The notes: generated by a model not told the origin, from the sequence alone. A DNA stretch of 64,000 bases from Actinomycetota bacterium (GCA_003140175.1 PLJD01000015.1:9963-73962), one strand, 5' to 3'; shown: positions 12,988-36,056, counted from the first letter of the stretch. Made by a program: numbers and translations.

Positions 12988-13239
12988 CGCGACAGTCTGT
13001 CCCGGCGAGGCTCGACCCGCCCACGCGGCGCAGAGCACGGTTGGCGTTCCTCGAACCAGTTCGACGCCGCTCCGCACCACTGCGGCCCAGGGGCCGGGAA
13101 GATCGGACGCGTCCGATGGATGGCCCGACGCCCCAATTCCCCCCGTGGACGACCTCGGACCGCTCCCAGTACCGTGGATCGACGGTGGCGGGCATCAGCG
13201 CCCGTCCCGCGGGCTTCTCACACCAGATAAGGACTGCCG

Positions 13240-14214
13240 ATGTCTGTGCGCGACGAGGTCGCGCTGCCTCCTCAGGAACTGATCATCCGGGTCGGCGACG
13301 ATCCCGGGGACACCGTCGCCGAGTACCACGCCATCGGGGGCCGCCACCGCAAGCTCCTCGAGTCCTACTTGCCTCCAGACTGGGTGTGGTCCGACAAGAC
13401 CTACCTCGACTGGGGCGCCGGGGCAGGACGACTCGTCCGGCACTTCCTCGCCGAAGCGGAGACCAATCGGATCATCGGCGCGGACATCCACGAGCCGAGC
13501 GTTCAGTGGATCCGTGACCATCTCGCCCCGGTCGAGAGTGTCCTCGTCCACGAGGAGCCGGGAATCGATCTCGTCGCCAACAGCGTCGACTTTGTTAGCG
13601 GCTTCTCGGTGATGACCCACATCACCGACCATTGGGCCGGCTGGTTGCTCGAGATCCGCCGGGTGCTTCGGCCCGGCGGCCTGGCCCTGCTCTCCTTCTG
13701 CGGAGAAGCGATGATCCCCGTCCTCCTCGACGGCACCGAGCAGATCGACGACCTGGGGATGCTCGTCGTCAAGTACGGGAACCCGTGGCGCTTCGGCGGC
13801 CCGACGGTCCTGCACTCACCCTGGTGGATCCGCGCCCACTGGGGCCGCGCCTTCGACATCGTGCGGATCGATTCCGCTGCACTGCAGGGCGTCAAGACCG
13901 GTCACGACCTTGCCCTCTTGCAGAAGCCGTTCAGCGCACCAGCCTCCATCGAGGACCTCGAGGCGGTCGATCCAAGCGATGCCCGTGAGACGCGCGGGAC
14001 GATGACCGCGTTTCGCCACGCGCGGGCCGAGCTCTGCGAAGTGCGGGGCGACTACGAGGTCGCACGCGAGGAGGCCTATCACCAGCGCCTGCTCGCCGAA
14101 GATCGTGCACTCAAGCTTCACGTCGTCCAAACCAGCCACAGCTGGAAGATCACCCGGCCCCTCCGCGCGTTGACGAGCCGCTTCAATCCGACCGATGGAT
14201 GGAAGTTGGACTGA
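13240..14214 (+). CDS. class I SAM-dependent methyltransferase with C-terminal coiled-coil tail
   Basis: SAM motif I YLDWGAGAGR and post-I IIGADI. The C-terminal ~80 aa are heptad-like (RHARAELCEVRGDYEVAREEAYHQRLLAEDRALKL) and end in SWKITRPLRAL. Confidence 0.8.
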   Translation: MSVRDEVALPPQELIIRVGDDPGDTVAEYHAIGGRHRKLLESYLPPDWVWSDKTYLDWGAGAGRLVRHFLAEAETNRIIGADIHEPSVQWIRDHLAPVESVLVHEEPGIDLVANSVDFVSGFSVMTHITDHWAGWLLEIRRVLRPGGLALLSFCGEAMIPVLLDGTEQIDDLGMLVVKYGNPWRFGGPTVLHSPWWIRAHWGRAFDIVRIDSAALQGVKTGHDLALLQKPFSAPASIEDLEAVDPSDARETRGTMTAFRHARAELCEVRGDYEVAREEAYHQRLLAEDRALKLHVVQTSHSWKITRPLRALTSRFNPTDGWKLD

Positions 14215-14505: not shown

Positions 14506-15105
14506 ATGACATTCTCCCGGGATTTCCTCAACGAGACGGTCGACATTCTGGCTGCCATACCGGACGCCGACGTCGAAGCAGTCGTCGAGGTCATTCGGTC
14601 GACCCGCGACCGAGGCGGACGCCTCTTCTTCTGTGGCTCTGGTGGCGGTGCGGGCCATGCCTCGCACGCCTCCTGCGACTTCCGGAAGTTAGCCGGGATC
14701 GAGTCGTACTCGGTGACGGACAACGTGTCGGAACTCACGGCTCGGATCAACGACGACGGCTGGGATACGTCGTATGCCGATTGGCTGGTTGCCTCTCGGC
14801 TCGGCGACCGGGACTGCATCTTCGTCTTCTCGGTCGGCGGGGGAGACGAGACCCACCAGATCAGCTCGAACCTGATCGCTGTGATGCGTCTGGCCAAGCG
14901 TGTCGGTGCCTCCCTGGTGGGTGTTGTCGGGAGAGACGGGGGCGTGCTCCGCCAGATGGCCGATGCGAGCATCGTGATCCCACAACTCAACCCTAAGCAT
15001 GTGACGCCGCAAACCGAGGGACTCCAAGCGTTGCTTTGGCACCTGATCGTCTCGCATCCAGCACTGGATCACGCGGTTGCGAAATGGGAATCGGTGTCGA
15101 GCTGA
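14506..15105 (+). CDS. gmhA: SIS-domain sedoheptulose-7-phosphate isomerase
   Basis: Starts at MTFSRDFLNETVD (ATG 14506). SIS blocks FFCGSGGGAGHASH and IFVFSVGGG. About 199 aa, as for GmhA. Lies with hddA/hddC/gmhB. Confidence 0.72.
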   Translation: MTFSRDFLNETVDILAAIPDADVEAVVEVIRSTRDRGGRLFFCGSGGGAGHASHASCDFRKLAGIESYSVTDNVSELTARINDDGWDTSYADWLVASRLGDRDCIFVFSVGGGDETHQISSNLIAVMRLAKRVGASLVGVVGRDGGVLRQMADASIVIPQLNPKHVTPQTEGLQALLWHLIVSHPALDHAVAKWESVSS

Positions 15106-15178
15106 TCGCGACCGCGCTTCAAGGGTCCCGTTGCGCCAGACAGTCGACCGCTGCATGCCGCGCGTAGCATCCCGCCCG

Positions 15179-16159
15179 ATGCGGGTTGTCGTCACAGGTG
15201 GCGCGGGATTTATCGGATCCAATCTCGTCGACGCGCTCCTGAGTGACGGGCATCACGTCGTCGTCGTCGACAACTTCTCGACCGGTGTGGTGGACAACCT
15301 GCACCGGGCTACCCAAACTCGCCGCTGTCAGATCGTCGAGGGTGATCTTCTCGACACAACTCTGGTCGCCGACGCGGTACGTGGAGCCGACGCCGTGTTT
15401 CACCTCGCGGCCAATGCCGACGTGCGCTTCGGATGGAACCATCCGTGGCGCGATCTCGAGCAGAACGTCGCCGCGACGATCAACGTTCTCGAGGCTGCCC
15501 GAGCCTCGGACGTGCGCCGAGTCCTGTTCTCCTCCACGGGCTCGGTCTACGGAGAAGCGCAAGTTATTCCGACCCTCGAGGACGCGGCGTTTCCGCAGCA
15601 GACGTCGCTGTACGGGGCGTCGAAGCTCGCCGCCGAGGGGTACCTCGGCGCGTATGCCGAAGCGGGGCACCTGAGCGTGACCGTGTTCCGATTCGTGTCC
15701 GTCCTCGGCCCCCGGTACTCGCACGGCCACGTCATCGACTTCGTGCGCCAGCTCGCCCGAGACCCCGCTCGGCTCCACATCCTGGGCGACGGCACCCAGC
15801 GGAAGAGTTACCTCGATGTCGACGACTGTGTCGCGGCGATGCGCCTGTGCCTGCCGCGAGACCCGCGCTTCGAAGTCTTCAACCTCGGCGTGGATTCGTA
15901 TTGCACGACCACCGAATCGGCCACCTGGATCTGCGAGCGGATGGGTGCGAAGCCCGAGGTTCGATTCGGCGGCGGCGATCGCGGATGGATCGGGGACAAC
16001 CCCTTCATCTTCCTGGACACGACGCGTATCCGGTCCCTGGGATGGGCCCATCGCCGCTCAATCCGGGAGGCGGTGGAGCGAACGGTCGACGACCTGCTCG
16101 CCCACCCCGCCCGACTCGACGCCCCGGCCGAGGATCGGGCCGCTGCGTCCGAGATCTGA
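15179..16159 (+). CDS. NAD-dependent nucleotide-sugar epimerase/dehydratase (extended SDR)
   Basis: Starts at MRVVVTGGAGFIGSNL (ATG 15179). Catalytic YxxxK in SLYGASKLAAE. Confidence 0.85.
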   Translation: MRVVVTGGAGFIGSNLVDALLSDGHHVVVVDNFSTGVVDNLHRATQTRRCQIVEGDLLDTTLVADAVRGADAVFHLAANADVRFGWNHPWRDLEQNVAATINVLEAARASDVRRVLFSSTGSVYGEAQVIPTLEDAAFPQQTSLYGASKLAAEGYLGAYAEAGHLSVTVFRFVSVLGPRYSHGHVIDFVRQLARDPARLHILGDGTQRKSYLDVDDCVAAMRLCLPRDPRFEVFNLGVDSYCTTTESATWICERMGAKPEVRFGGGDRGWIGDNPFIFLDTTRIRSLGWAHRRSIREAVERTVDDLLAHPARLDAPAEDRAAASEI

Positions 16160-16411
16160 GATTCTCCGATTGTCTCGTCCCGCGCGACACCCCACGGCGG
16201 AGCGCCACCGGGTCCGCCGGGTGGTGGGGCACGCCCAGCGGCCGGCGTTGCCCGCCTCGCGGTCCCCGGACCAAGATTCGGTGATGCACCAGCCACGGCG
16301 GTCGCGTGAGGACGCCGCGACCGGTCCGAACGCCACGGCCGGGGCAGGACCTTCGAACGACGATCCGGGGGTTGATGCCCTCGTGGGTCGCGAGTCGAGT
16401 CGACGACGCTC

Positions 16412-17383
16412 GTGATCATCACGCGAACGCCACTTCGGATCTCGCTGGGGGGCGGCGGCACCGACCTCCCCAGCTACTACCGTCAAGCTGGCGGCGGTTT
16501 CCTCATCGCCGCTGCCATCTCGAAGTATGTGTTCATCGCCATCAACGACAACTTCGAAGACACCATCCTGCTGAAGTACTCAGAAGTCGAGCGCGTCGGT
16601 GACGCCTCGAGCATTCAGCACCCATTGCTCCGCGAAGCGGTGCTCCTCAGCGGCATCCATCACGGCATCGAGATCTCGGCGATGGCAGACATCCCGGCGG
16701 GCACCGGGCTGGGCTCATCGGGGTCGTTCACGGTCGGGCTCGTGCGCGCTCTGCGTGCTTACCAGCACCAGAGCGTCTCGAACGTTGAGCTGGCCGAGGA
16801 CGCGTGCCATATCGAGATCGACCGACTCGGGGAGCCGATCGGCAAGCAGGACCAGTACATTTCGGCGGTGGGCGGTATTGCTGCCTTCGAGTTCCGACCC
16901 GACGAGCAGGTCGCGGTCAGCCCGGTCCGACTCTCGAGTTCGAGCCGACACGCCGTCGAGGAGAACCTGCTCCTCTTCTACACCGGGATCCGACGGTCTG
17001 CCTCGGAGATGCTCGCGGTCGAACAGATGCCCGGCGCCAACGTCAACGACAACCTGGACGCGGTGAAGCACCTTGGACACCAGGCTCATGAAGCGTTGGA
17101 ATCGGACGACCTGGAGCGGTTCGGTGCTCTCTTGAGCGACCAGTGGGCCCTCAAGTTCAAGCGCTCGCCTGGCGAAGCCCATCGCGAGATCGACGGCTGG
17201 ATCCGAGAAGGCATCGAGGCGGGTGCCGCCGGCGGCAAGCTTGTGGGTGCGGGCGGCGGAGGCTTTCTCCTCTTCTACGCCGAACACAAAGCTGATCTGC
17301 GCGCCGCGATGGCCGCCCGCGGCCTGGAAGAGGTTCGCTTCCGAATTGACTATGAAGGCTCAGCGACCATCGTTTCGCAATAG
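16412..17383 (+). CDS. hddA: GHMP-family D-glycero-alpha-D-manno-heptose-7-phosphate kinase
   Basis: GHMP motif PAGTGLGSSGS and C-terminal GAGGGGFLLFY. GTG start. Immediately followed (2-nt gap) by the nucleotidyltransferase. Confidence 0.78.
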   Translation: MIITRTPLRISLGGGGTDLPSYYRQAGGGFLIAAAISKYVFIAINDNFEDTILLKYSEVERVGDASSIQHPLLREAVLLSGIHHGIEISAMADIPAGTGLGSSGSFTVGLVRALRAYQHQSVSNVELAEDACHIEIDRLGEPIGKQDQYISAVGGIAAFEFRPDEQVAVSPVRLSSSSRHAVEENLLLFYTGIRRSASEMLAVEQMPGANVNDNLDAVKHLGHQAHEALESDDLERFGALLSDQWALKFKRSPGEAHREIDGWIREGIEAGAAGGKLVGAGGGGFLLFYAEHKADLRAAMAARGLEEVRFRIDYEGSATIVSQ

Positions 17384-17385
17384 CG

Positions 17386-18090
17386 ATGCTGCCAGTCCTC
17401 GTCCTTTGCGGTGGCTCCGGGACCCGGCTTCGGGACGTCACGCAGGGGATTGTCCCGAAGGCGATGGTCCCAGTCGCAGGCCGTCCATTCATCGACTGGA
17501 AGCTGGAGCAGCTGTCCGACCAGGGCCTGGAGGAGGTCGTGCTGTCGGTGGGACTCGGCGGCAAGCAGATTGTTTCGCACGTGCGCGACGGCGCGCAGTT
17601 CGGCGTACGGGCGCGCTACGTCGACGACGGGCAGGAGCTTCTCGGAACGGGAGGAGCGGTCGTCGCCGCGCTCCCGTCTCTTCCGGACGCCTTCTGGATC
17701 ACCTACGGTGACACGATGCTGGAGGTGAACGCGGCTGATGCCGAGTTGCGCTTTCAGGAGTCTCAAAAGCTCGGGGCGATGACCGTGTTGCACAACCGCG
17801 ATCGCCGGCAACCGAGCAACGCGACCGTCGTCGGCGACCTTGTCACCGCCTATCGAAAAGAACCACCGCCGCGTGATGCCGAATACATCGACTACGGGAT
17901 GCTCGTCTTGACGAGGGCGGCATTTGACGACGCGTCTCGCCAGACCCCGTTCGACTTGGCAAGCGTGCTGGGTCCCCTAGCGGCGCGCGGTGAGCTGCTG
18001 GCGATCGTTGCGCACGAGCCGTTTCACGACATTGGGACGCCCGAAGCGCTGCGGGACACTGAGGCGTTCCTGACCGGCCGCCGGACCTGA
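17386..18090 (+). CDS. hddC: D-glycero-alpha-D-manno-heptose-1-phosphate guanylyltransferase-type nucleotidyltransferase
   Basis: N-terminal LVLCGGSGTRLR (GGxGTRL). Short 234-aa NTP-transferase. Paired with the GHMP kinase. Confidence 0.75.
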   Translation: MLPVLVLCGGSGTRLRDVTQGIVPKAMVPVAGRPFIDWKLEQLSDQGLEEVVLSVGLGGKQIVSHVRDGAQFGVRARYVDDGQELLGTGGAVVAALPSLPDAFWITYGDTMLEVNAADAELRFQESQKLGAMTVLHNRDRRQPSNATVVGDLVTAYRKEPPPRDAEYIDYGMLVLTRAAFDDASRQTPFDLASVLGPLAARGELLAIVAHEPFHDIGTPEALRDTEAFLTGRRT

Positions 18091-18126
18091 GAGCGACCGG
18101 TTGATCCCCCCGACGAGCGGTACGCC

Positions 18127-19008
18127 ATGAGATGCAAGATCTGCCAGTCCGAGATGCGAGACGTCGGCACGAAGGTCTCCGCCCAGACGGAGCGGGTGTT
18201 CAATCTCGCTCACTGTGAGGTATGCCAGTTCTCCTGCGTCTCCAATCCACGTGTTGACTTCGAGCAGATCTACGACGAGGCCTACTACCGAGGTGAGGGA
18301 GCCGATCCCTCGGTCTCGTACGAGACCGAGGCGGGTGATCCGCGCACGAGTCGCCGGTATGAGTGGCGCGGCATGCTGCGCGTCGTCCAGTCGGTGCGCC
18401 CAGTCGGTGAAGAAACAGAATGGCTCGACTTTGGCTGCGGCTTAGGGGGCTTCGTCGAATACCTCCGCGCGCACGGCTTCCGCCGGGCGGTCGGCCACGA
18501 CGAAGGGTATGCCGCCCGGCGAGTGGAGACGCTGAACATCCCTAGTCTCAGCGCCCGCGACCTCGACTCAGCGAACGGCCGCTTCGACGTCATCACGGCG
18601 ATCGAGGTCTTGGAGCACGCCCTCGATCCCCTCGCGGTACTCCGCCAGATGTGCTCGGCGTTGAAGCCAGGCGGGGTCTTGGTCCTCACGACCGGCAATG
18701 CGAAGCCGTATCGCGACAAGCTCACTGCCTGGTCGTACGTCGTGCCAGATGTCCACGTCAGCTTCTTCGAGCCCGAGACGTTAGCCCGCGCCATGCGGCT
18801 CGCCGGACTCACTCCCGAACATCGGGGACACTCGCCTGGTTGGACGGACATCATCCGCTACAAGGTCTTGAAATCGCTGCACGTCCAGCGGCAGAGCTGG
18901 TCCGAGGCGATCGTGCCCTGGCCGGTCGTCGCCCGGATCGTGGATTGGCGTCTCGGGGTATCCGCTCAGCCCGTGGGTTCTCGCGGTGACGAGGACAGCT
19001 CCGCTTGA
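18127..19008 (+). CDS. class I SAM-dependent methyltransferase with N-terminal zinc-ribbon
   Basis: CKIC...CEVC at the N-terminus. SAM motif LDFGCGLGG. Motif IEVLEHALDP. Confidence 0.8.
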   Translation: MRCKICQSEMRDVGTKVSAQTERVFNLAHCEVCQFSCVSNPRVDFEQIYDEAYYRGEGADPSVSYETEAGDPRTSRRYEWRGMLRVVQSVRPVGEETEWLDFGCGLGGFVEYLRAHGFRRAVGHDEGYAARRVETLNIPSLSARDLDSANGRFDVITAIEVLEHALDPLAVLRQMCSALKPGGVLVLTTGNAKPYRDKLTAWSYVVPDVHVSFFEPETLARAMRLAGLTPEHRGHSPGWTDIIRYKVLKSLHVQRQSWSEAIVPWPVVARIVDWRLGVSAQPVGSRGDEDSSA

Positions 19009-19853
19009 TCCGAGGCTGGCAAGCCCCCGTCCGTGATGGTGCGCGCGATGGGAGCAAACCGGAAGCGGATACAAGCCCGAAGCCACGTCGGAGGATCGCG
19101 GAACAGGCGAACCTTCTTGCCAGAGGCGAACGACCGTGCCGAGTACGTCACGGGCACCTCAAGCGGCGAGTAGCCCAGGCGGATCATCTTGGCGACGAGC
19201 TCCCAGTCGAAGTCGAAGCGATCGGACTCGAACTCGATACCTTCGACACATTCACGACGGAACACCTTGTACATGGTGAACGGATCGTGGAGGCGAACGC
19301 CGTAGAAGACGTCGAAGAGCACGGTGAATCCCCAGTGGGCCGAGTTGATGACCCAGCCGAGGACCCGGTTCTCGCGCATCACGCGCATCGGCTGTCCCGG
19401 GACGTGGCGACAGCCCAGGGTGAAGTCGACTCGCCCCGCGGTGATCGGCGCGAGCAGTGCTGGATAGTCCTCGACCGAGTACTCGAGGTCGGCGTCTTGG
19501 ATGAGCAGGATCTCGCCGGTGACATGTTTGAGCGCCTCGCGGACTGCGTGGCCTTTCCCGCGCGGCTCGGGCTCGTAGAAGATTCGGATCCCTGGCGTGC
19601 CCTCGAACTTGGCGACGAGCTCGCGGCTTCCGTCCGTCGAGTTGCTCTCGACGATGACGATGTCGATCTGCGTGTCGGGGAGGTCTAGCTCGCGGACCCG
19701 TTCAATCGCCTCTTGAACGGTCTCGGCCTCGTTGAAGACGGGCATGATGACGCTGAGTGTCGTCGGCGCGGTCGGTGGCGAAGGGAACCTTGATCCCGAG
19801 TCACGACGCCGGCTGCGCCGCCAGGGCGGTCGCCGGGATGGATTCGATTTCAT
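18966..19853 (-). CDS. GT2 polyprenyl-phosphate glycosyltransferase (DPM1/GtrB-like catalytic domain, no C-terminal TM helices)
   Basis: SVIMPVFNEAETV, IVIVESNSTDGS and DxD in IQDADLEYS. Directly downstream of the YfhO gene on the same strand. The 3' end overlaps the convergent methyltransferase gene by 43 nt. Confidence 0.78.
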   Translation of the reverse strand: MKSNPSRRPPWRRSRRRDSGSRFPSPPTAPTTLSVIMPVFNEAETVQEAIERVRELDLPDTQIDIVIVESNSTDGSRELVAKFEGTPGIRIFYEPEPRGKGHAVREALKHVTGEILLIQDADLEYSVEDYPALLAPITAGRVDFTLGCRHVPGQPMRVMRENRVLGWVINSAHWGFTVLFDVFYGVRLHDPFTMYKVFRRECVEGIEFESDRFDFDWELVAKMIRLGYSPLEVPVTYSARSFASGKKVRLFRDPPTWLRACIRFRFAPIARTITDGGLPASDQAELSSSPREPTG

Positions 19854-20057
19854 GAAGATGACTGCCCAGGGTGGTCGTGCCTCGAGAGAACCGAGGTCGT
19901 GCGGGACGAGGGCGCCGACGGCACCGGGGATGCTAGCGGCGCCGAGAGGATCCCGACACCTGAGCGACGCCCCGAGTGGGGCCCTCGAACGGCGGCCGGG
20001 CGCCAGGAGGCACGGCCTGGGCGTTGGGTGGGACAGAGGGAGGGCCGAGGGCGTCGC

Positions 20058-22565
20058 TCAGGACGACTGCGGGCGACGCCGCGCGAGCCGGCTCCCCCAG
20101 ATGGCGCCGCGCCGGCGAAACGGCCGGAACATGGTGGCTGCGAGCCCGATCAGGGCGAGGATCCCGAGCACCAGGAACACGACGCCCAGTTTGAACGACG
20201 ATGGTTGGTACTCGAACACGACGGTGGATCGCCCGGCTGGGACTGACACCCCGCGGAGCGCCACGTCGGTCGGATAGATGCTGGACGGGTGGCCGTTCAC
20301 GGTTGCCGTCCAGCCGGGGTAGTACTCGTCGCTGAGAACCAATAAGCCCGCGCAGCTCGCCGAGACGCTCACCGTGACCTTGTTGGCCTGGTAGGACTCG
20401 ATGCGGGTGCTGTCGGTATTGGTCGCGCACGGCTGAGACTGCGGTACCGGATCGTGTTGGCCTTCGATCACGGCGATTTGTCGCGGGTTCTTCCGTTCCA
20501 CGTCTACGGACTTGTTCGAGAAGTGGGGTTCACCCGATTTCAGGAAGTTCAGGGCTGCGGTCTCGTTGGGGACGGCCTGAACGTCGTGGACGAGGAACGC
20601 TCGGGGCGCGGCGTCGGTGTTCTTGTACACCACGACGCCGTCCGCTCGGTACACGATCTGGAACTGTGGGGAGGCGGCCGGTGCAGTCGGACTGACGCAG
20701 GTTGGATCAGCGAATCGGTTGCACGTGGTGTCGTACAAGATGTAGCGAATGCCCAGGAGGTCGAACATGCTGTTGTCGGCTACCGCGGGCGCGCTCTCGA
20801 AGAGGGCGACCGCGTTGAATCGGTCGACAATGCCGGCGGAGAGAAAGGTCTGGATGTAACGCCAGTACCGGTCGACGTAGAGCGCATCCACCATCCGCGG
20901 GTCGTACAGGCCATATACACCGGACGTGTCGGGGTACAGCACCCCGTCCGGGCTGAAGATCCGGGATCCGTCCTTCGTGTTGTCGCGGACGAAGTTGATC
21001 CAGCTCTTGGAGGGATAGGGGCTTTGGCGCGGTTCGTAGATTCCCCGTGGTGCCACGGCGACGACTTCGAGGATGACGACGAAGAGGATCAGGAGGGTGG
21101 CGGCGCGGGGGGCGAGCAGGAGAATTGCCGCGGCCACGGTCGCCGCAACGAGAATGCCGAGCGGCCAACCACCGAGGACGGACACGTCATGGCCGAGCGC
21201 CACTGGGCGATGGGTGGCGATGACGAAGATGAGGGCGACCACCGCGACGGCCGCGACCGCGACTGCGAATCGGGCCTTGACCAGCTCTCCGTCGAGGAGT
21301 GTCTGCAGCCCCACTCCGGCGAGGAGCGCGACGACGAGCGCGATGACCGGCGTCCCGTAAACGGGCCAGAGCACCTGCGACCAGACCGGGAGGAACCGCG
21401 TCCAGCCGACCAGCCGTCCGCCGTAGATCTGAACGATAACGACACCACCCGTGGCGAGGAGGGGCCAGCCGGCGTACCGACGTAAGGCGCGGGGGTGCAG
21501 GACCGCCGTCCCGGCCAGCAGGACGGCGCCGACCCCGACCCAGTTGCGGGAGTAGGCGTACGTGGTCCCCGATGTCGCGTTGATCTTCGGCATCATCCAG
21601 TTGAGGAAGACGCCGATTGGGTCGGTGTGGGGTGGTGTATTGCCCAGATTGGCGTGCGTATTGAACGACAGCGGTACGTACTCATGGAAGAGCGCAAGCT
21701 GCGGAGCGGCGAGGGCAAGTCCAACGCCGGCTCCGAAGAGGAGTCGAGCCGCGGTGCGGGGGCGGGTCTGTGCCTGATCACCGACGAACAGTCGAACCGC
21801 AGAGAAGATCCCGGCGGCCACGAGGATGATGAACATCGGCTCTGGCATGCCCACCAGCACCATCGCCGCGATCGAGACGCTGAGCAGCGCGACTGGCAGA
21901 CGGTGGTCGGTCCGTACCGACCGCTCGATGCACGCGAGGATGAGTGGGAGGAAGAGAAATATTCGAAACCATTGATTGTTGCTGTAGACGAAGAACCACC
22001 CGGACAGCCCATAGACGCTGCCGCTCATGGTCGCGGCGATCGGTCCGAGGCCGAACACTCGTGCTGCAACGTACGCTCCGCATCCCATGAGGAGCAGACC
22101 GAACAGTGCCGTGAGATCCGCGACGAGCGGAGTTGGATGGAGATGCAGCGGGAGCAGCATGGGGTCGAAGACCGCGCTCTGTAGGTTCGCGGCGAGCGGC
22201 ATGCCGATGCCCTGATAGGGGTTCCACAGGGGGAGTTGACCGTCCGAGAGGAGCCGATGCGTGACTTGATCCCACGGTTCCAGCGCCACCGATGATGCTG
22301 TGGGATCGCCGCGTGGGTCGCCGCTGATCAGGCCGCGACACTGACCTGGCGTGCCGCATCCCTGGACCCCGGCGATTTGGCTCGCGGTGCTGAAGGTCCG
22401 GCCCTCGAAGGGGACCTGGAAGTACCCGACGAGGATCACGATGCAGACGATCGTGACGCCGAGTAGGTCGAGCCACAGGCCGCGACGCCAGCTGCGGTCG
22501 CGGTCGGTGCGTCGGGCCGCCGGAGTGTCGTCGGGCTCTCCGTCGCGAACGCGTAGTGGATTCAT
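20058..22565 (-). CDS. YfhO-family GT-C-fold membrane glycosyltransferase
   Basis: 835 aa with many TM helices. The C-terminal block YYPGWTATVNGHPSSIYPTDVALRGVSVPAGRSTVVFEYQP, followed by one final TM, is the pattern I associate with YfhO proteins. Confidence 0.75.
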   Translation of the reverse strand: MNPLRVRDGEPDDTPAARRTDRDRSWRRGLWLDLLGVTIVCIVILVGYFQVPFEGRTFSTASQIAGVQGCGTPGQCRGLISGDPRGDPTASSVALEPWDQVTHRLLSDGQLPLWNPYQGIGMPLAANLQSAVFDPMLLPLHLHPTPLVADLTALFGLLLMGCGAYVAARVFGLGPIAATMSGSVYGLSGWFFVYSNNQWFRIFLFLPLILACIERSVRTDHRLPVALLSVSIAAMVLVGMPEPMFIILVAAGIFSAVRLFVGDQAQTRPRTAARLLFGAGVGLALAAPQLALFHEYVPLSFNTHANLGNTPPHTDPIGVFLNWMMPKINATSGTTYAYSRNWVGVGAVLLAGTAVLHPRALRRYAGWPLLATGGVVIVQIYGGRLVGWTRFLPVWSQVLWPVYGTPVIALVVALLAGVGLQTLLDGELVKARFAVAVAAVAVVALIFVIATHRPVALGHDVSVLGGWPLGILVAATVAAAILLLAPRAATLLILFVVILEVVAVAPRGIYEPRQSPYPSKSWINFVRDNTKDGSRIFSPDGVLYPDTSGVYGLYDPRMVDALYVDRYWRYIQTFLSAGIVDRFNAVALFESAPAVADNSMFDLLGIRYILYDTTCNRFADPTCVSPTAPAASPQFQIVYRADGVVVYKNTDAAPRAFLVHDVQAVPNETAALNFLKSGEPHFSNKSVDVERKNPRQIAVIEGQHDPVPQSQPCATNTDSTRIESYQANKVTVSVSASCAGLLVLSDEYYPGWTATVNGHPSSIYPTDVALRGVSVPAGRSTVVFEYQPSSFKLGVVFLVLGILALIGLAATMFRPFRRRGAIWGSRLARRRPQSS

Positions 22566-22786
22566 GAGATTGAACCTGTCGCGTGCGAGGGAACTCGCGG
22601 GCGTGCTCGAAGAGCGCCGTATCCTAGCCTCGTGTCAAATCGCGCCGGCAACCGTGCGACCACCGCGGGTGGTGTTCGCGGGCGTGACGGCTCGGAGGCG
22701 GGACGTTCGGTCCACGACCGAGCCGTCGGGCTGAGCATCGTCGGGGTCCGCCAGCGAACCGGCAGCGGCCGCAGCGGCCCGGTGTG

Positions 22787-23347
22787 ATGGCACGGCGCCG
22801 GGCAGTGTTTCTCGATCGGGACGGGGTGCTGAACGAGTCGCGCGGGGGGGCCGCGTCGCCCCATCGGATGGAGGACCTGCAGATCTCGTCCGAGGCTCGC
22901 GACGTGGTGAATCGGATCCAGCAGCGCGGGTTTCTCACCGTGATCGTGACCAACCAGCCCGACGTCGCTCGCGGGCAGATGACGCTGGACGACGCTCTCG
23001 AGATCAGCGACCGCGTGCGCAGTGCAACCGGGGCGGATGCAGCGTATCTGTGCGCTCATGATTCCGGTGATGCATGCTCGTGTCGAAAGCCGAAGCCCGG
23101 GATGTTGTTGCAAGCCGCGCGGGAGCACAGCATCGATCTTGTGGGCTCTTGGCTCATCGGAGATCGTTGGGTCGATGTTGCGGCGGCGAAGGCTGCCGGG
23201 GTGCGATCCGTGCTCCTGGAGCGCGAGTACAGCTGGTTACCGACGAGCGCAGGTCCGCCGCCGCCCGGCCTCCGCCCTGCCCACCGGGCGTCAACGCTGA
23301 CGGGCTGCGTCGATCTCGTGCTCGCTGAGTCCGTCGACGAGGACTAG
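22787..23347 (+). CDS. gmhB: D-glycero-D-manno-heptose-1,7-bisphosphate 7-phosphatase (HAD-IIIA)
   Basis: FLDRDGVLNE (DxDG), VTNQPDVARG, Zn/Cys block CAHDSGDACSCRKPKPGML, and GDRWVDVAAAKAAG. GTG 22784 is an alternative start. Confidence 0.85.
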   Translation: MARRRAVFLDRDGVLNESRGGAASPHRMEDLQISSEARDVVNRIQQRGFLTVIVTNQPDVARGQMTLDDALEISDRVRSATGADAAYLCAHDSGDACSCRKPKPGMLLQAAREHSIDLVGSWLIGDRWVDVAAAKAAGVRSVLLEREYSWLPTSAGPPPPGLRPAHRASTLTGCVDLVLAESVDED

Positions 23348-23483
23348 TCCGGTGCGGACCGACACCGGCCAAGGTCCCTCCAGCGGAGACGCCGGCGGTC
23401 GCGCAGCGGCGACGGGTGCCACCCGCGCCCCGCGGTGCCGGTGGAAGCGGACTCTGGGGGTTAAACGGAGAAGCCGGTGAGCG

Positions 23484-24197
23484 TTAGAGCGAGTATCCCG
23501 ATAGCTCTGCATCCCGAGCGAACATCTTGACGGTGTCGAGGGAAACCTCCACCGGGTCGCGGCCGAGCCCGGGCAGCTTCTTGAGCAGCTCGTGGGTGAC
23601 CGTGATGACGTGACAGCCGATCGCAGCCGCCTGCGCGACATTGAGAATCTCGCGCGGGCTCGCCCAGATGAGCTCGAGATTCTTGTAGGGCGCGAGGATC
23701 TCGAGGGCCTCGACCATCACGGGCAGAGGATCTGATCCGGTATCCGCGATCCGTCCCGCAAACACCGAGACGTACGCGTGCGGTGCATCGACCAGCGCAC
23801 CGGCGACCTCACGGACCTGATCGGCAGTGAGCAGGGCAGTGACGTTGAGCTTCACGCCCGATCCAGCGAGCGAACGCTGGACCGCCACGGTGCTGTTTCC
23901 CAGCGTGTCGGTCACCGGGATCTTCACGTGAACGTGCTCACCCCACGACGAGATCTTCAACGCTTGCTCGACCATCCCGTCAGGCTCGTTCGAAAACACC
24001 TCGAACGAGATTGGCCGATCGGGTACGAGATCCACCATGTCAACCGCAAACGACTCGTAGTCCTCGACACCCGCGGCGCGCATCAGGGTTGGGTTCGTCG
24101 TAAATCCACGGATCACCGGATTGGATCTCAACTCGAGGATCCCATTGCGGTCGGCACCATCTGCGAACACTTGGGTGACGCCTAGGTCGAAATCCAT
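23484..24197 (-). CDS. short transaldolase / fructose-6-phosphate aldolase family protein
   Basis: GFTTNPTL and the Schiff-base lysine block VHVKIPVT. About 237 aa from MDFDLGV (ATG 24197). The ORF opens 21 nt upstream at 24218. Confidence 0.82.
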   Translation of the reverse strand: MDFDLGVTQVFADGADRNGILELRSNPVIRGFTTNPTLMRAAGVEDYESFAVDMVDLVPDRPISFEVFSNEPDGMVEQALKISSWGEHVHVKIPVTDTLGNSTVAVQRSLAGSGVKLNVTALLTADQVREVAGALVDAPHAYVSVFAGRIADTGSDPLPVMVEALEILAPYKNLELIWASPREILNVAQAAAIGCHVITVTHELLKKLPGLGRDPVEVSLDTVKMFARDAELSGYSL

Positions 24198-24354: not shown

Positions 24355-25236
24355 GTGCCGACCCAGTTGCACGATCAGACTTGCGTGATCACCGGCGCCA
24401 GCCGGGGAATCGGCCGAGTCATCGCCGGGCGCCTCGCGGCCGGCGGGGCGCGCCTGGTCCTGTGCTCCCGCAGTCAGGCGGAGCTCGAGCGCACCGCTGC
24501 CGACATCGTCGAGCGGTACGGAGTCGAGGTCAGGACGGAGCCGACCGACGTGACGGATCTGGGGGCGCTGTCCGAGCTCGCCTCGAGCGTCGAACGCCGC
24601 GGGCCAACCTCTACCCTGATCAACTGCGCGGCCGTCTTGGGCCCAGTCGGACGGATCGACCAGGTCGACCAGGAACGCTGGCGACACGCCCTGACCACCA
24701 ATCTCGGAGGTACCGCCGCGGCGTGCGCAGCGTTCGTACCTCAGATGATCGCGGGTGGTGGGGGTTCGATCGTGAACCTGTCCGGCGGCGGGATCGGTGG
24801 ACCAAATCTTCCGGGGAGGATCAGCGCGTACACGGCTTCGAAGGCCGGGGTCGCGGCACTCACCGAGTCGCTCGGCGAAGAACTGGCACCACATGGCATC
24901 CGTATCAACGCGGTGGCACCAGGTCCCGTCGGCACCGGATTCATGCGAGAGGTGCTGGACGCGGGACCAGAGGGAGCCGGCGCCGACCTGTACCGCAGCA
25001 CGGTTCGCCAGCAGGACGTGACCGAGCCCAGCGAGCAACTCCTCGACCTCGTGGAGTTCATCGTGTCGCCCGAATCGAGTCCCCTGACCGGCAAGCTGTT
25101 GAGCGCACGGTGGGATGACTTGGACAGTCTGCGCGCCCACGTCGCGGACCTGTCCCGCTCCTCCACGTACAACCTGCGTCGTATCGATGGGACCCTGTTT
25201 TCTGAGGCCGATACCGGGTCGGGATCCTCGCCATGA
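24355..25236 (+). CDS. SDR-family oxidoreductase with C-terminal extension
   Basis: VITGASRGIG, NCAA, and YTASKAGV (YxxxK). About 45 extra C-terminal residues. GTG start. Confidence 0.85.
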   Translation: MPTQLHDQTCVITGASRGIGRVIAGRLAAGGARLVLCSRSQAELERTAADIVERYGVEVRTEPTDVTDLGALSELASSVERRGPTSTLINCAAVLGPVGRIDQVDQERWRHALTTNLGGTAAACAAFVPQMIAGGGGSIVNLSGGGIGGPNLPGRISAYTASKAGVAALTESLGEELAPHGIRINAVAPGPVGTGFMREVLDAGPEGAGADLYRSTVRQQDVTEPSEQLLDLVEFIVSPESSPLTGKLLSARWDDLDSLRAHVADLSRSSTYNLRRIDGTLFSEADTGSGSSP

Positions 25237-26231
25237 CGGTCGGTGTCGGGATCATCGGCTGCGGACTGGTCGGTCGAAAGCGGGCTGCCGCATTGCCGAC
25301 GGGAGCCCGGCTCGTCAGTGTGTTCGACCAGGACCGAGCCCGCGCCGCTGAGCTGATTGCGGGCCGGGTTGAGGACGTCGATCGTGCGACGACGGTGGAG
25401 CAACTGCTCGGTCGGGATGACCTCGACCTCGTCGTCATCGCAACGCCGCATCGAGACCTGGCTGGCCTCTCAGCTGCGGCATTGGACGCGGGCAAACATG
25501 TCTTGGTCGAGAAGCCAGGTGCCATCGACGTCGCCGAGGCTCGACTCGTCGCGCAGCACGCCGTGTCGGGGCAGCGGCTTGTGCGCGTCGGCTTCAACCA
25601 TCGTTTTCACCCGTCATTTCGTGAGGCCAAGCAGATCATCGATCGGAACGAGTACGGCCGTGTCCTCCATATTCGAGGTCGGTACGGACACGGCGGCAGG
25701 CTCGGATACGAGCGGGAATGGCGAGCAGATCCCGTCCTGTCCGGCGGCGGTGAGCTGATCGACCAGGGCATCCATCTCATTGACCTGACCAGGTACCTGA
25801 CCGGGGATGTGGAACTCGCTTTCAGCGCTCTCCGGACGGAGTTTTGGGCGATGGCGGTGGAAGACAATGCCTTCATCGCCCTTCGTAGTCTCTCCGGGAC
25901 TGTCGCATGGCTCCACGCCTCCTGGACGGAGTGGAAGAACCTGTTCTCGTTCGAACTGATGCTCGAGCGTGCCAAGTTGGAGGTCACTGGGCTCGGAGGG
26001 AGCTATGGCGTCGAGACGCTGACCATCTACGAAATGCTTCCCGAGATGGGGCCGCCGCGCAGTCGAACCCAGGAATGGGCGCACGAGGACACATCCTGGG
26101 GTGCAGAACTGACTGATGTCCTGGGAGAGATCGGCGGGCAGCCGAGGGTCGGTTCGAATATCGACGACGCAGTGGCCGCATTGTCGATTGTCGATGCGGC
26201 CTACCGGTCGCGAGACGACGGTCAGCCATGA
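25233..26231 (+). CDS. Gfo/Idh/MocA-family oxidoreductase
   Basis: Rossmann VGIIGCGLVGRKR and VLVEKPGA. 4-nt overlap with both the upstream SDR and the downstream methyltransferase. Confidence 0.85.
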   Translation: MTVGVGIIGCGLVGRKRAAALPTGARLVSVFDQDRARAAELIAGRVEDVDRATTVEQLLGRDDLDLVVIATPHRDLAGLSAAALDAGKHVLVEKPGAIDVAEARLVAQHAVSGQRLVRVGFNHRFHPSFREAKQIIDRNEYGRVLHIRGRYGHGGRLGYEREWRADPVLSGGGELIDQGIHLIDLTRYLTGDVELAFSALRTEFWAMAVEDNAFIALRSLSGTVAWLHASWTEWKNLFSFELMLERAKLEVTGLGGSYGVETLTIYEMLPEMGPPRSRTQEWAHEDTSWGAELTDVLGEIGGQPRVGSNIDDAVAALSIVDAAYRSRDDGQP

Positions 26232-35968: not shown

Positions 35969-36056
35969 CATTCCCCCTTGTCGGCCCCACGTGGCCGAGT
36001 GCCGCGAATCCTGCCACGCCGGACGTGTCGGTGGGGGGATCGGTACGCTGCGCTTG

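What the first reader, a model, noticed from the sequence alone, without database searches (positions are those of the whole stretch)
14506..24197. Complete GDP-(not ADP-)heptose pathway plus a dedicated sedoheptulose-7-P supplier
SIS isomerase (14506..15105), GHMP kinase (16412..17383), small GGxGTRL nucleotidyltransferase (17386..18090) and HAD-IIIA bisphosphate phosphatase (22787..23347) make up the four-enzyme GmhA/HddA/GmhB/HddC route. This route gives GDP-D-glycero-alpha-D-manno-heptose and was characterised for the Aneurinibacillus thermoaerophilus S-layer glycan. The use of a GHMP kinase rather than a ribokinase-type HldE indicates the alpha/GDP branch. A short transaldolase-family gene (23484..24197) sits in the same island and could make sedoheptulose-7-P on demand. 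The extended-SDR gene between gmhA and hddA suggests the heptose is further modified (epimerised or deoxygenated).
Basis: partly seen in the sequence, partly recalled or inferred. Interest (0 to 1): 0.6.

Follow-up and report, generated by a model that had tools for sequence, protein, structure and literature searches.

The report
Transaldolase-primed higher-sugar (heptose/octose) nucleotide pathway
A cell-surface polysaccharide locus carries all the enzymes needed to build a nucleotide-activated seven- or eight-carbon sugar; its built-in transaldolase and unusual isomerase resemble the lincomycin eight-carbon (octose) route more than the textbook GDP-heptose route, but the chain length is not proven.

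Summary
The transaldolase lies on the minus strand.

The GDP-heptose reading is only partly supported:
- None of the four enzymes reaches the curated GmhA, HddA, HddC or GmhB cut-offs. The isomerase scores 46 bits against a cut-off of 209.
- The isomerase belongs to a distinct, very widespread clade, found in at least 594 species loci across many phyla.
- In that clade a short transaldolase lies beside the isomerase in 41 of 46 long loci. TAL-SIS fusions exist.
- In 20 ordinary GmhA/HddA-type loci of the same phylum no transaldolase is linked (0 of 20).

I recovered celesticetin-type lincosamide clusters from two Streptomyces-like genomes for comparison. Their octose-type isomerase shares two insertions with this clade that GmhA-like proteins lack. 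Their phosphatases nest inside the cassette's phosphatase clade. The kinase and transaldolase trees do not agree with this picture.

My best reading, at about 0.5, is a lincosamide-like NDP-octose (probably GDP) made for a surface glycan. It would be passed on by an adjacent GT2 and a YfhO-type transferase. GDP-heptose stands at about 0.3.

The scan has reported this cassette before on other DNA.

The parts
13240..14214 (+). SAM-dependent methyltransferase, first gene of the co-directional run
   Evidence: Pfam Methyltransf_11/25/12, E about 1e-10
14506..15105 (+). SIS-fold ketose-phosphate isomerase of the cassette clade (GmhA fold, not a GmhA equivalog)
   Evidence: TIGR00441 46.5 bits against a cut-off of 209. 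AlphaFold pLDDT 97; Foldseek best match B. pseudomallei GmhA, TM 0.78. Metal and catalytic positions H54/D58/E171/H179 are kept; the phosphate loop reads S-V-G-G-G plus a 6-aa insert. Cassette clade supported 100/99.
15179..16159 (+). Extended SDR epimerase/dehydratase, LmbM/CcbM-like
   Evidence: Pfam Epimerase 2.2e-53. 39-40% identity and 210-213 bits to the lincosamide-cluster SDR. Falls in a 99-supported clade made of cassette SDRs, the lincosamide SDRs and one control. Start ATG at 15179.
16412..17383 (+). GHMP anomeric sugar kinase (HddA/WcbL/LmbP family)
   Evidence: NF049969 HddA 136 bits, below the cut-off of 600. PDB best matches: WcbL 116 bits and C. jejuni HddA 105 bits. 34% identity and 117 bits to the lincosamide-cluster kinase.
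17386..18090 (+). Small sugar-1-phosphate nucleotidyltransferase (HddC/LmbO/MurU family); nucleotide not determined
   Evidence: MurU 96 bits and HddC 87.5 bits, both below cut-off. GGSGTRL motif. 34-35% identity and 95 bits to the lincosamide-cluster NTase.
18127..19008 (+). SAM-dependent methyltransferase
   Evidence: Pfam Methyltransf_23, 2.7e-29
18966..19853 (-). GT2 polyprenyl-phosphate glycosyltransferase-like enzyme (AglJ/Dpm/GtrB type)
   Evidence: Glycos_transf_2 3.2e-28. Best NCBIfam hit AglJ, 101 bits, below cut-off. Homologues at 44-54% identity lie in eight cassette loci of other phyla (L051, L084, L085, L088, L091, L104, L127 and G148).
20058..22565 (-). YfhO-type polytopic GT-C glycosyltransferase
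   Evidence: Pfam YfhO 2.2e-18. About 10 hydrophobic segments. Also next to the cassette in G148 and L085.
22784..23347 (+). HAD-IIIA sugar bisphosphate phosphatase (GmhB/LmbK type)
   Evidence: TIGR01656 124 bits (above cut-off) and TIGR01662 84 bits (above cut-off); GmhB PRK08942 111/178. 38% identity and 112-114 bits to the lincosamide-cluster HAD. Lincosamide HADs nest within the cassette HAD clade, 99 SH-aLRT.
23484..24197 (-). Short transaldolase (TIGR02134 type), third transaldolase of the genome
   Evidence: TIGR02134 289 bits against a cut-off of 282. Residue pattern is that of a transaldolase, not an F6P aldolase: Lys in H-V-K-I-P, Glu in S-F-E-V-F, Phe in S-V-F-A-G-R. Two long transaldolases lie elsewhere in the genome.
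24355..25236 (+). Classical SDR oxidoreductase; recurrent cassette member
   Evidence: adh_short 9.2e-43. Homologues in 17 of 46 long cassette loci.
25233..26231 (+). Gfo/Idh/MocA oxidoreductase, LmbZ/CcbZ-like
   Evidence: Pfam GFO_IDH_MocA. 41% identity and 194-201 bits to the lincosamide-cluster GFO+carrier protein, against a best PDB match of 85 bits.
26228..27103 (+). SAM-dependent methyltransferase; 4-nt overlap with the GFO gene
   Evidence: Methyltransf_23 2.2e-27
27170..28435 (-). Wzt ABC-transporter ATPase with a C-terminal carbohydrate-binding domain
   Evidence: ABC_tran 4.6e-20 and Wzt_C 4.5e-19
28439..29251 (-). Wzm ABC-2 permease
   Evidence: ABC2_membrane 1.3e-18. Six hydrophobic segments.
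29255..30619 (-). GT4/GT1-like glycosyltransferase
   Evidence: Weak Glyco_trans_1_4 hit, 8.7e-06, below the gathering score
30553..31548 (-). SAM-dependent methyltransferase
   Evidence: Methyltransf_11 1.2e-19

Best explanation
The locus encodes a dispersed copy of a widespread, uncharacterised 'transaldolase-primed' sugar-nucleotide cassette.

Inferred pathway, by analogy with LmbR/N/P/K/O of lincomycin:
1. The short transaldolase (23484-24197, -) moves a C3 unit from fructose-6-P or sedoheptulose-7-P onto a pentose phosphate, giving an octulose 8-phosphate.
2. The SIS isomerase (14506-15105) converts it to the aldose 8-phosphate.
3. The GHMP kinase phosphorylates C1 (alpha).
4. The HAD-IIIA phosphatase removes the terminal phosphate.
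5. The small nucleotidyltransferase makes the NDP-sugar, probably GDP.

The LmbM-like SDR, the LmbZ-like Gfo/Idh/MocA enzyme, the classical SDR and the methyltransferases then tailor it. The adjacent GT2 would load the sugar on a polyprenyl phosphate, and the YfhO-type GT-C would add it outside the membrane to a methyl-capped polymer exported by Wzm/Wzt.

Shown here: the genes and their families, the cassette's conservation, its specific linkage to a transaldolase, and its kinship with lincosamide sugar enzymes.

Inferred only: the chain length (C8 rather than C7), the nucleotide, and the acceptor.
For: 1. All five core families plus LmbM-like and LmbZ-like enzymes lie within 12 kb.

2. The SIS protein is not a GmhA equivalog (46.5/209 bits). 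It is the only SIS_2 protein of the genome. It belongs to a clade with at least 594 species loci in many phyla and 269 representatives at E<=1e-30.

3. Among cassette loci of at least 16 kb, the window's transaldolase finds a homologue in 41 of 46, similar to HAD (40) and GHMP (38). All three other genomes of a 400-genome phylum sample that carry this SIS type have a transaldolase in the cluster.

4. A TAL-SIS fusion (P0310) and HAD-SIS, NTase-SIS and SDR-SIS fusions exist.

5. Control: 20 GmhA-like loci of Actinomycetota (+-10 kb) have the GHMP kinase in 16 and HAD in 15, but any transaldolase in 0 of 20.

6. This genome already has two long transaldolases.

7. Celesticetin-type clusters were recovered from G602 and G737. 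Gene order and protein lengths (202/427/416/323/232 aa) match the published ccb table.
- Their isomerase shares two insertions with the cassette SIS that 25 GmhA-like proteins lack.
- With those columns removed, the GmhA-like proteins still form one side of a branch at 94/81.
- Lincosamide HADs nest inside the cassette HAD clade (99).
- The LmbM-type SDR sits in the cassette's SDR clade (99).
- The window's GFO is 41% identical to the CcbZ type, against at most 85 bits for anything in the PDB.

8. Published closest non-lincosamide homologues of the Ccb sugar enzymes come from Solibacter, Acidobacterium, Sorangium and Methanosarcina. Acidobacteriota, the myxobacterial family Polyangiaceae (to which Sorangium belongs) and a methanogen (Methanospirillum) are among the lineages that carry the cassette (PMC4351081 S1 Document).
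Against: - No biochemistry exists for any cassette member. The chain length is inferred.
- The kinase tree puts the lincosamide kinases with ordinary actinobacterial HddA-like kinases, not with the cassette.
- The lincosamide transaldolases form their own clade, and the cassette's transaldolases come from several generic short-TAL clades. The enzyme may therefore be an ordinary transaldolase whose normal product is sedoheptulose-7-P.
- The kinase is as close to WcbL/HddA (116 bits) as to the lincosamide kinase (117 bits).
- The SIS tree is unrooted, so 'sister to the octose isomerase' rests on the shared insertions.
- The window lacks LmbL (UGDH-family) and LmbS (aminotransferase) homologues.
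- Five of 46 long cassette loci show no transaldolase with this query.
- To my knowledge straight-chain aldo-octoses have not been reported in bacterial polysaccharides.
Confidence: 0.5

Rival explanations
1. The genes form a GDP-D-glycero-alpha-D-manno-heptose pathway (or a stereoisomer) using divergent GmhA, HddA, GmhB and HddC. The transaldolase only raises the sedoheptulose-7-P supply, and the SDRs further modify the heptose.
For: - Best NCBIfam hit of the kinase is HddA. Best PDB hits are WcbL and HddA.
- Best fold match of the SIS protein is GmhA, with the metal and catalytic residues kept.
- Best PDB hits of the HAD are GmhB.
- The transaldolase passes the generic equivalog TIGR02134 and has the normal Glu/Lys/Phe residues.
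- Cassette transaldolases come from several generic clades.
- The kinase tree does not separate C8 from C7 kinases.
- Heptoses are common in surface glycans.
Against: - All four equivalog cut-offs are missed, the isomerase by the widest margin.
- The phosphate-binding loop of the isomerase is remodelled in the way seen in the octose isomerase type.
- Ordinary GmhA/HddA clusters in the same phylum carry no transaldolase (0 of 20), while the cassette nearly always does.
- The genome has two other transaldolases, so a supply role would be redundant.
Confidence: 0.3
2. The cassette makes a different activated sugar: a C9 or otherwise non-standard ketose-derived sugar, or a C7/C8 sugar activated with UDP or CDP rather than GDP.
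For: - The nucleotidyltransferase scores slightly higher on the UTP-dependent MurU model than on HddC, and its best PDB hit is MurU.
- Transaldolases accept several aldose phosphates (general enzymology).
- The tailoring set (classical SDR plus methyltransferases, no aminotransferase) differs from both known pathways.
Against: - Both characterised pathways with this kinase/phosphatase/NTase logic use GTP (HddC from memory; LmbO per PMC4351081).
- No precedent exists for C9 by this route.
Confidence: 0.1
3. The transaldolase is a passenger or housekeeping gene that merely sits in the island and plays no part in the sugar pathway.
For: - It is on the opposite strand, in its own transcription unit.
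- In G145 and G148 the cluster transaldolase is the only PF00923 hit of the genome, so it could also serve central metabolism there.
Against: - Linkage is seen in 41 of 46 long loci across many phyla.
- The TAL-SIS fusion P0310 exists.
- Transaldolases from different clades recur at the same cassette position.
Confidence: 0.05

Closest known systems
Lincosamide GDP-octose module of Streptomyces lincolnensis / S. caelestis (LmbR/CcbR transaldolase, LmbN/CcbN isomerase, LmbP kinase, LmbK phosphatase, LmbO guanylyltransferase; then LmbM, LmbL, LmbZ, LmbS)
   Same: - Family-for-family match of the five core steps, plus an LmbM-like SDR and an LmbZ-like Gfo/Idh/MocA enzyme.
- Protein lengths are similar: 199/202, 323/323, 234/232 and 187/185 aa.
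- The isomerases share two insertions.
- HAD and SDR are phylogenetically intermingled with the cassette (PMC4351081 S1 Document).
   Different: - Identities are only 30-41%.
- The kinase and the transaldolase are not the closest relatives in trees.
- There is no LmbL (UGDH-family) or LmbS (aminotransferase) gene, no carrier-protein domain, and no amino-acid or thiol chemistry.
- The context is a Wzm/Wzt surface-glycan locus with GT2 and YfhO, not an antibiotic cluster.
GDP-D-glycero-alpha-D-manno-heptose pathway (GmhA, HddA/WcbL, GmhB/WcbN, HddC/WcbM) of Aneurinibacillus thermoaerophilus, Campylobacter jejuni, Burkholderia pseudomallei and Yersinia pseudotuberculosis
   Same: - Same four enzyme families and order of reactions.
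- The kinase's best structural relatives are WcbL and HddA.
- The isomerase has the GmhA fold and metal site.
   Different: - All curated equivalog cut-offs are missed.
- The isomerase phosphate loop is remodelled.
- A transaldolase is an integral, conserved part of the gene set here. In the 20 GmhA/HddA-type control loci searched none is linked.
Widespread uncharacterised cassette SDR-UGDH-SDR-GFO-GHMP-NTase-SIS-HAD-TAL, seen here in at least 594 species loci and reported earlier by this scan on other DNA
   Same: - The window's SIS lies inside this clade (100/99).
- The window holds eight of the nine families.
   Different: - The window's copy is split into four transcription units on both strands.
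- It lacks the UGDH-family gene.
- It is interleaved with methyltransferases and the GT2/YfhO pair.
Three-component extracytoplasmic glycosylation (GtrB/CsbB-type GT2, flippase, GT-C such as YfhO or GtrC) and ABC-transporter-dependent O-polysaccharide export (Wzm/Wzt with Wzt_C)
   Same: GT2 and YfhO are adjacent and co-oriented. Wzm and Wzt (with Wzt_C) lie in the same island.
   Different: No GtrA-type flippase gene was identified. The link between the NDP-sugar and this GT2 is inferred from neighbourhood only.

Membership tests
GmhA (D-sedoheptulose 7-phosphate isomerase) | Score above the curated equivalog cut-off (TIGR00441, 209.45 bits) | tested here: not met
   46.5 bits. For comparison: GmhA-like actinobacterial proteins 81-191 bits, CcbN-type 86 bits, another cassette member 54 bits.
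GmhA (D-sedoheptulose 7-phosphate isomerase) | GmhA fold with the four metal/catalytic positions (B. pseudomallei H64, E68, Q175, H183) | tested here: met
   Foldseek TM 0.77-0.80, rmsd 1.9 A to 2x3y/5lu7. The aligned positions are H54, D58, E171 and H179, invariant or nearly so in the clade.
GmhA (D-sedoheptulose 7-phosphate isomerase) | Short S-(T/A)-S-G-x-S phosphate-binding loop | tested here: not met
   Replaced by S-V-G-G-G plus a 6-residue insert. A second 4-residue insert precedes T-P-x-x-E. Both are shared with lincosamide-type isomerases and absent in 25 GmhA-like proteins.
HddA (D-glycero-D-manno-heptose 7-phosphate kinase) | Score above the equivalog cut-off NF049969 (600 bits) | tested here: not met
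   136 bits, full-length alignment and best NCBIfam hit. PDB best: WcbL 116 bits, HddA 105 bits.
HddC (heptose 1-phosphate guanylyltransferase) | Score above the equivalog cut-off NF049965 (300 bits); GTP specificity | tested here: not met
   87.5 bits; MurU scores 96.4. Nucleotide specificity cannot be tested with these tools.
GmhB (heptose 1,7-bisphosphate 7-phosphatase) | HAD-IIIA domain, and score above the GmhB cut-offs | tested here: inconclusive
   HAD-IIIA (TIGR01662, 84/44.6) and TIGR01656 (124/84) are met. GmhB models score 111/178, 95/150 and 86/250, so they are not met.
Lincosamide GDP-octose module (LmbR/N/P/K/O) | Transaldolase, SIS isomerase, GHMP kinase, HAD phosphatase and NTase encoded together, with the transaldolase a conserved member | tested here: met
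   All five lie within 14506-24197. TAL linkage is 41 of 46 in cassette loci against 0 of 20 in GmhA-like loci.
Lincosamide GDP-octose module (LmbR/N/P/K/O) | Each enzyme is the closest relative of its Lmb/Ccb counterpart in trees | tested here: inconclusive
   HAD: lincosamide type nested in the cassette clade (99). SDR: same clade (99). SIS and NTase: branch between the controls and the cassette. GHMP: lincosamide type groups with the controls. TAL: separate clade.
Lincosamide GDP-octose module (LmbR/N/P/K/O) | LmbL (UGDH-family) and LmbS (aminotransferase) tailoring, giving an amino-octose | tested here: not met
   No UGDH-family or aminotransferase gene in 12-36 kb. Many other cassette loci do carry the UGDH-family gene.
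Lincosamide GDP-octose module (LmbR/N/P/K/O) | The product is an eight-carbon sugar nucleotide | not testable with these tools
   Needs enzyme assays or mass spectrometry.
Transaldolase (as opposed to fructose-6-phosphate aldolase) | Schiff-base Lys, plus Glu and Phe where FSA has Gln and Tyr | tested here: met
   H-V-K-I-P, S-F-E-V-F and S-V-F-A-G-R. TIGR02134 scores 289/282. The residue rule is from my knowledge of the TalB/FSA literature.
ABC-transporter-dependent polysaccharide export (Wzm/Wzt) | ABC-2 permease plus an ATPase with a Wzt_C domain | tested here: met
   Pfam hits above the gathering scores.
GtrB/YfhO-type extracytoplasmic glycosylation | Polyprenyl-P GT2, flippase and GT-C encoded together | tested here: inconclusive
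   GT2 and YfhO are present and adjacent. No flippase was identified. The GT2 falls below the AglJ cut-off.

The most novel reading that the evidence does not exclude
A straight-chain octose is a regular building block of cell-surface glycans in hundreds of mostly uncultured bacterial and some archaeal species. It is made from a pentose phosphate by a transaldolase-primed GDP-octose pathway, then epimerised, oxidised or methylated. The sugar module of the lincosamide antibiotics was largely recruited from this primary surface-glycan cassette. In this actinobacterium the sugar reaches the polymer through a polyprenyl-phosphate carrier and a YfhO-type transferase.
Probability: 0.45. Interest if true: 0.8.

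Novelty: new variant of a known kind. Interest (0 to 1): 0.64.

Why it matters
If the product is an octose, this would be a new class of surface sugar. It would also be the evolutionary source of the lincomycin and celesticetin sugar pathway, hidden under the automatic label 'sedoheptulose 7-phosphate isomerase / heptose pathway' in hundreds of genomes.

If the product is a heptose, the result still defines a distinct, transaldolase-dependent variant that current annotation models miss.

The question can be settled with five soluble enzymes and a mass spectrometer. The answer would re-annotate a cassette spread over many phyla, would inform glycan structure work on acidobacteria, verrucomicrobia, myxobacteria and CPR bacteria, and would provide enzymes for making rare higher-carbon sugar nucleotides.

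Tried and rejected
Contexts of the metagenomic homologues could not be read, so the genome search, the fetch from genomes and the search for related loci were used instead.
- The two JACS papers on LmbR/N and LmbK/O are not held. Their content is cited only through PMC4351081 and PMC12945683.
- The first, 29-sequence alignment was too diverse for the search for related loci. A closer 11-sequence one worked, but its best 80 loci held no Streptomyces.
- Looking for LmbN-type carrier-protein+SIS fusions among the top 150 representatives found none.
- A transaldolase search of 401 Streptomyces-like genomes at E<=1e-30 found nothing. The threshold was too strict, since lincosamide transaldolases are only about 30% identical. 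The SIS query then found G602 and G737.
- The idea that the cassette transaldolase is brought into hosts that lack one was not borne out. G145's relatives have long transaldolases and G145 itself shows only the cluster copy, which is ambiguous.
- Literature searches for an octose or transaldolase pathway in glycan clusters found nothing beyond lincosamides and aminoglycosides.
- The kinase tree was expected to mirror the SIS tree and did not.

Full report
**Observation.** The window is about 74% G+C, with a 63-67% island from about 12 to 36 kb. Third-position GC bias and family searches give a consistent gene set.

| Coordinates | Strand | Gene |
|---|---|---|
| 13240-14214 | + | methyltransferase |
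| 14506-15105 | + | SIS isomerase |
| 15179-16159 | + | extended SDR |
| 16412-17383 | + | GHMP kinase |
| 17386-18090 | + | nucleotidyltransferase |
| 18127-19008 | + | methyltransferase |
| 18966-19853 | - | GT2 |
| 20058-22565 | - | YfhO-type GT-C |
| 22784-23347 | + | HAD-IIIA phosphatase |
| 23484-24197 | - | short transaldolase |
| 24355-25236 | + | classical SDR |
| 25233-26231 | + | Gfo/Idh/MocA oxidoreductase |
| 26228-27103 | + | methyltransferase |
| 27170-28435 | - | Wzt |
| 28439-29251 | - | Wzm |
| 29255-30619 | - | GT4-like glycosyltransferase |
| 30553-31548 | - | methyltransferase |

The last three plus-strand genes (classical SDR, GFO, methyltransferase) are joined by 4-nt overlaps. 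The corrections are small: the transaldolase is on the minus strand, the SDR most likely starts at the ATG at 15179, and the phosphatase ORF opens one codon earlier.

**Is it the GmhA/HddA/GmhB/HddC route?** By NCBI's curated models it is not a member.
- SIS protein: 46.5 bits on the GmhA equivalog (cut-off 209).
- Kinase: 136 bits on HddA (cut-off 600), although HddA is its best hit.
- Nucleotidyltransferase: 87.5 bits on HddC (cut-off 300), and slightly more (96) on MurU.
- Phosphatase: passes only the general HAD-IIIA models.
- Solved structures give the same picture. Best matches are WcbL/HddA for the kinase (116 and 105 bits), GmhB for the phosphatase (72 bits), MurU then Yersinia HddC for the transferase, and GmhA for the isomerase at only 45 bits.
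- The AlphaFold model of the isomerase (pLDDT 97) has the GmhA fold (TM 0.78, rmsd 1.9 A). The four metal/catalytic positions of B. pseudomallei GmhA align with H54, D58, E171 and H179.

The chemistry (metal-dependent aldose-ketose isomerisation, anomeric kinase, terminal phosphatase, nucleotidyl transfer) is therefore well supported. The substrate is not.

**A distinct, widespread cassette with its own transaldolase.**
- The isomerase is the only SIS_2 protein of the genome, so no canonical GmhA is present.
- In a 400-genome sample of the phylum its relatives are bimodal. Three genomes have copies at 50-59% identity; all other hits are at most 37%.
- Each of the three carries the isomerase next to the SDR, the HAD phosphatase and a short transaldolase. 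The kinase is present in all three and the transferase in the two longer loci. One of the three, G148, is an unpublished genome.
- A search of 1.84 billion representatives gives 269 clusters at E<=1e-30.
The phyla and lineages include Acidobacteriota, Actinomycetota, Verrucomicrobiota, Myxococcota, Chloroflexota, Saccharibacteria, Legionella, Pelagibacteraceae, cyanobacteria and Methanospirillum.
- In the 46 fetched loci of at least 16 kb, the window's proteins find the transaldolase in 41, HAD in 40, kinase in 38, SDR in 36, transferase in 31, GFO in 22 and the classical SDR in 17.
- The commonest order is SDR-UGDH-SDR-GFO-kinase-transferase-SIS-HAD-TAL.
- Fusions HAD-SIS, SIS-HAD, NTase-SIS, SDR-SIS and a true TAL-SIS protein (P0310) occur.
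- The transaldolase partner is polyphyletic. It is a TIGR02134-type clade in most loci, including the window, and at least three other short-transaldolase clades in about eleven loci. The activity, rather than one lineage of the gene, has been kept.
- The window's enzyme has the Lys/Glu/Phe pattern of true transaldolases.
- This genome has two further, long transaldolases.

**Control.** I fetched +-10 kb around 20 GmhA-like isomerase genes (non-cassette clade) of the same phylum. An HddA-like kinase is present in 16 and a HAD phosphatase in 15. A transaldolase of any of nine query types is present in none. Ordinary GmhA/HddA/GmhB clusters therefore do without a transaldolase in the same kinds of organisms. 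The linkage is specific to the clade the window belongs to.

**Comparison with the one characterised transaldolase-primed pathway.**
- Published work assigns LmbR (transaldolase), LmbN (C8 isomerase), LmbP (kinase), LmbK (phosphatase) and LmbO (guanylyltransferase) to GDP-octose formation. LmbM, LmbL, LmbZ and LmbS act in its conversion (PMC4351081; PMC12945683).
- Searching 381 Streptomyces-like genomes with the window's isomerase gave two hits, G602 and G737.
- Their loci have the gene order HAD-UGDH-SDR-SIS-GFO(+carrier domain)-aminotransferase-...-kinase-transferase-DegT-transaldolase.
- They have ORFs of 202, 427, 416, 323 and 232 aa. These are the published celesticetin order and lengths.
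- A third genome, G394, has the lmb-type order with more divergent proteins.

Window proteins against G602/G737:

| Protein | Identity | Bits |
|---|---|---|
| SIS | 33-34% | 98 |
| HAD | 38% | 112-114 |
| kinase | 32-34% | 81-117 |
| transferase | 34-35% | 95 |
| transaldolase | 30% | 82-87 |
| SDR | 39-40% | 210-213 |
| GFO | 41% | 194-201 |

- For SIS, HAD, transferase and GFO these scores exceed the scores to any solved heptose-pathway protein. BLAST and phmmer bits are only roughly comparable.
- The alignment shows two insertions shared by cassette and lincosamide-type isomerases and absent from all 25 GmhA-like proteins. One turns the phosphate loop S-(T/A)-S-G-x-S into F-S-V-(G/H)-G-G plus 6-9 residues. 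The other adds four residues before the T-P-x-x-E helix.
- With those columns dropped, a careful tree still keeps the 25 GmhA-like proteins on one side of a branch (94/81) and the cassette as a clade (100/99).
- The tree is unrooted, so the shared insertions carry the argument for common descent. The short loop is the usual SIS motif, as far as I recall.

**Other trees are mixed.**
- Lincosamide phosphatases nest inside the cassette's phosphatase clade (99, quick tree).
- The LmbM-type SDR lies in the cassette's SDR clade (99).
- The transferase branches between controls and cassette.
- The lincosamide kinases group with ordinary actinobacterial HddA-like kinases (94).
- The lincosamide transaldolases form their own clade.
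- The lincosamide module thus looks like a mosaic drawn largely, not wholly, from this cassette. That fits the published best hits of the Ccb enzymes in Solibacter, Acidobacterium, Sorangium and Methanosarcina.

**Weighing.**

For an eight-carbon product:
- the specific and repeatedly renewed transaldolase linkage;
- the redundancy of an 'S7P supply' role in a genome with two other transaldolases;
- the remodelled substrate loop shared with the octulose-8-P isomerase type;
- the co-located LmbM-like and LmbZ-like enzymes.

For a seven-carbon product:
- the generic nature of the transaldolases;
- the HddA/WcbL-like kinase;
- the lack of any reported aldo-octose in polysaccharides (to my knowledge);
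- the absence of biochemistry for any cassette member.

I put C8 at about 0.5, heptose at about 0.3, another product or nucleotide at about 0.1, and a passenger transaldolase at about 0.05. GDP is likely, because both characterised relatives use GTP, but it is not shown.

**Use of the sugar (inferred).**
- The GT2 (AglJ/Dpm/GtrB-like) and the YfhO-type GT-C (about 10 membrane segments) sit between the transferase and phosphatase genes.
- GT2 homologues at 44-54% identity lie in eight cassette loci (L051, L084, L085, L088, L091, L104, L127 and G148). YfhO accompanies the cassette in G148 and L085.
- This suggests transfer to a polyprenyl phosphate and addition outside the membrane, onto a polymer made by the GT4-like enzyme, methylated, and exported by Wzm/Wzt, whose Wzt_C domain implies a capped chain end.
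- No flippase gene was identified.

**Novelty and limits.**
- The held literature has no description of this cassette outside lincosamides.
- This scan's own notes show the same cassette was reported before on other DNA in dozens of genomes, always with the chain length unproven. I formed the octose hypothesis before reading them (note) and tested the linkage, controls and lincosamide comparison independently.
- G148, used as one of three phylum examples and as rows in trees, is unpublished. No conclusion depends on it alone.
- Most trees are 'quick' searches.
- One tool (look-up of encoding contigs) was closed.

Noticed in passing
L134 (G394:C17:149000-168999): A third Streptomyces-like genome carries HAD-UGDH-SDR-SIS-GFO-kinase-NTase-(aminotransferase)-TAL in the lincomycin (lmb) gene order. 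Its isomerase is only 46% identical to the celesticetin-type one and has no carrier domain. It may be an undescribed amino-octose natural-product cluster.
   Followed up: partly
L041-L043 (G285, G297, G385; genus g103): Small (about 2.2 Mb) actinobacterial genomes carry one or two TIGR02134-type short transaldolases (46% identical to the window's; two about 3 kb apart in G285, two on separate contigs in G297, one found in G385), with no cassette-type isomerase. Their context was not examined.
   Followed up: no
G145:C6:131071-131685 and G148:C159:57262-57891: In two genomes that carry the cassette (100% and 98% complete), the cluster transaldolase is the only PF00923 hit. Relatives of G145 have long transaldolases. 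The cassette enzyme may have taken over the central-metabolism role there.
   Followed up: partly
L070:11565-12386 (-): In a Verrucomicrobiia cassette locus without a transaldolase, an HpcH/HpaI-family aldolase gene sits directly after the phosphatase gene on the other strand. This could be a non-homologous replacement or a coincidence.
   Followed up: no
window 12000-36000: The glycan locus is a lower-GC island (63-67% against 73-75%). Its isomerase and transaldolase have 92-93% identical proteins in JGI metagenomes and 65-80% relatives labelled Acidimicrobiia, while the window's own class mostly lacks them. This suggests horizontal acquisition.
   Followed up: partly
window 12310-13080 (-) and 31846-33063 (+): Two well-biased ORFs (256 and 405 aa) at the edges of the island have no Pfam family and no hydrophobic segments.
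   Followed up: no
window 33210-34175 (-), 35664-37094 (+), 37168-38985 (+): Just outside the island lie a CDGSH/4Fe-4S-type iron-sulfur protein, a UbiA prenyltransferase and a 605-aa MGDG-synthase-like glycosyltransferase. This may be a separate glycolipid module.
   Followed up: no
P0327 (987 aa) and P0231 (417 aa): Metagenomic proteins appear to join SDR, SIS and kinase segments (P0327) or SDR and SIS (P0231) in one chain. P0327 may be a frame-shifted gene call rather than a true fusion.
   Followed up: no
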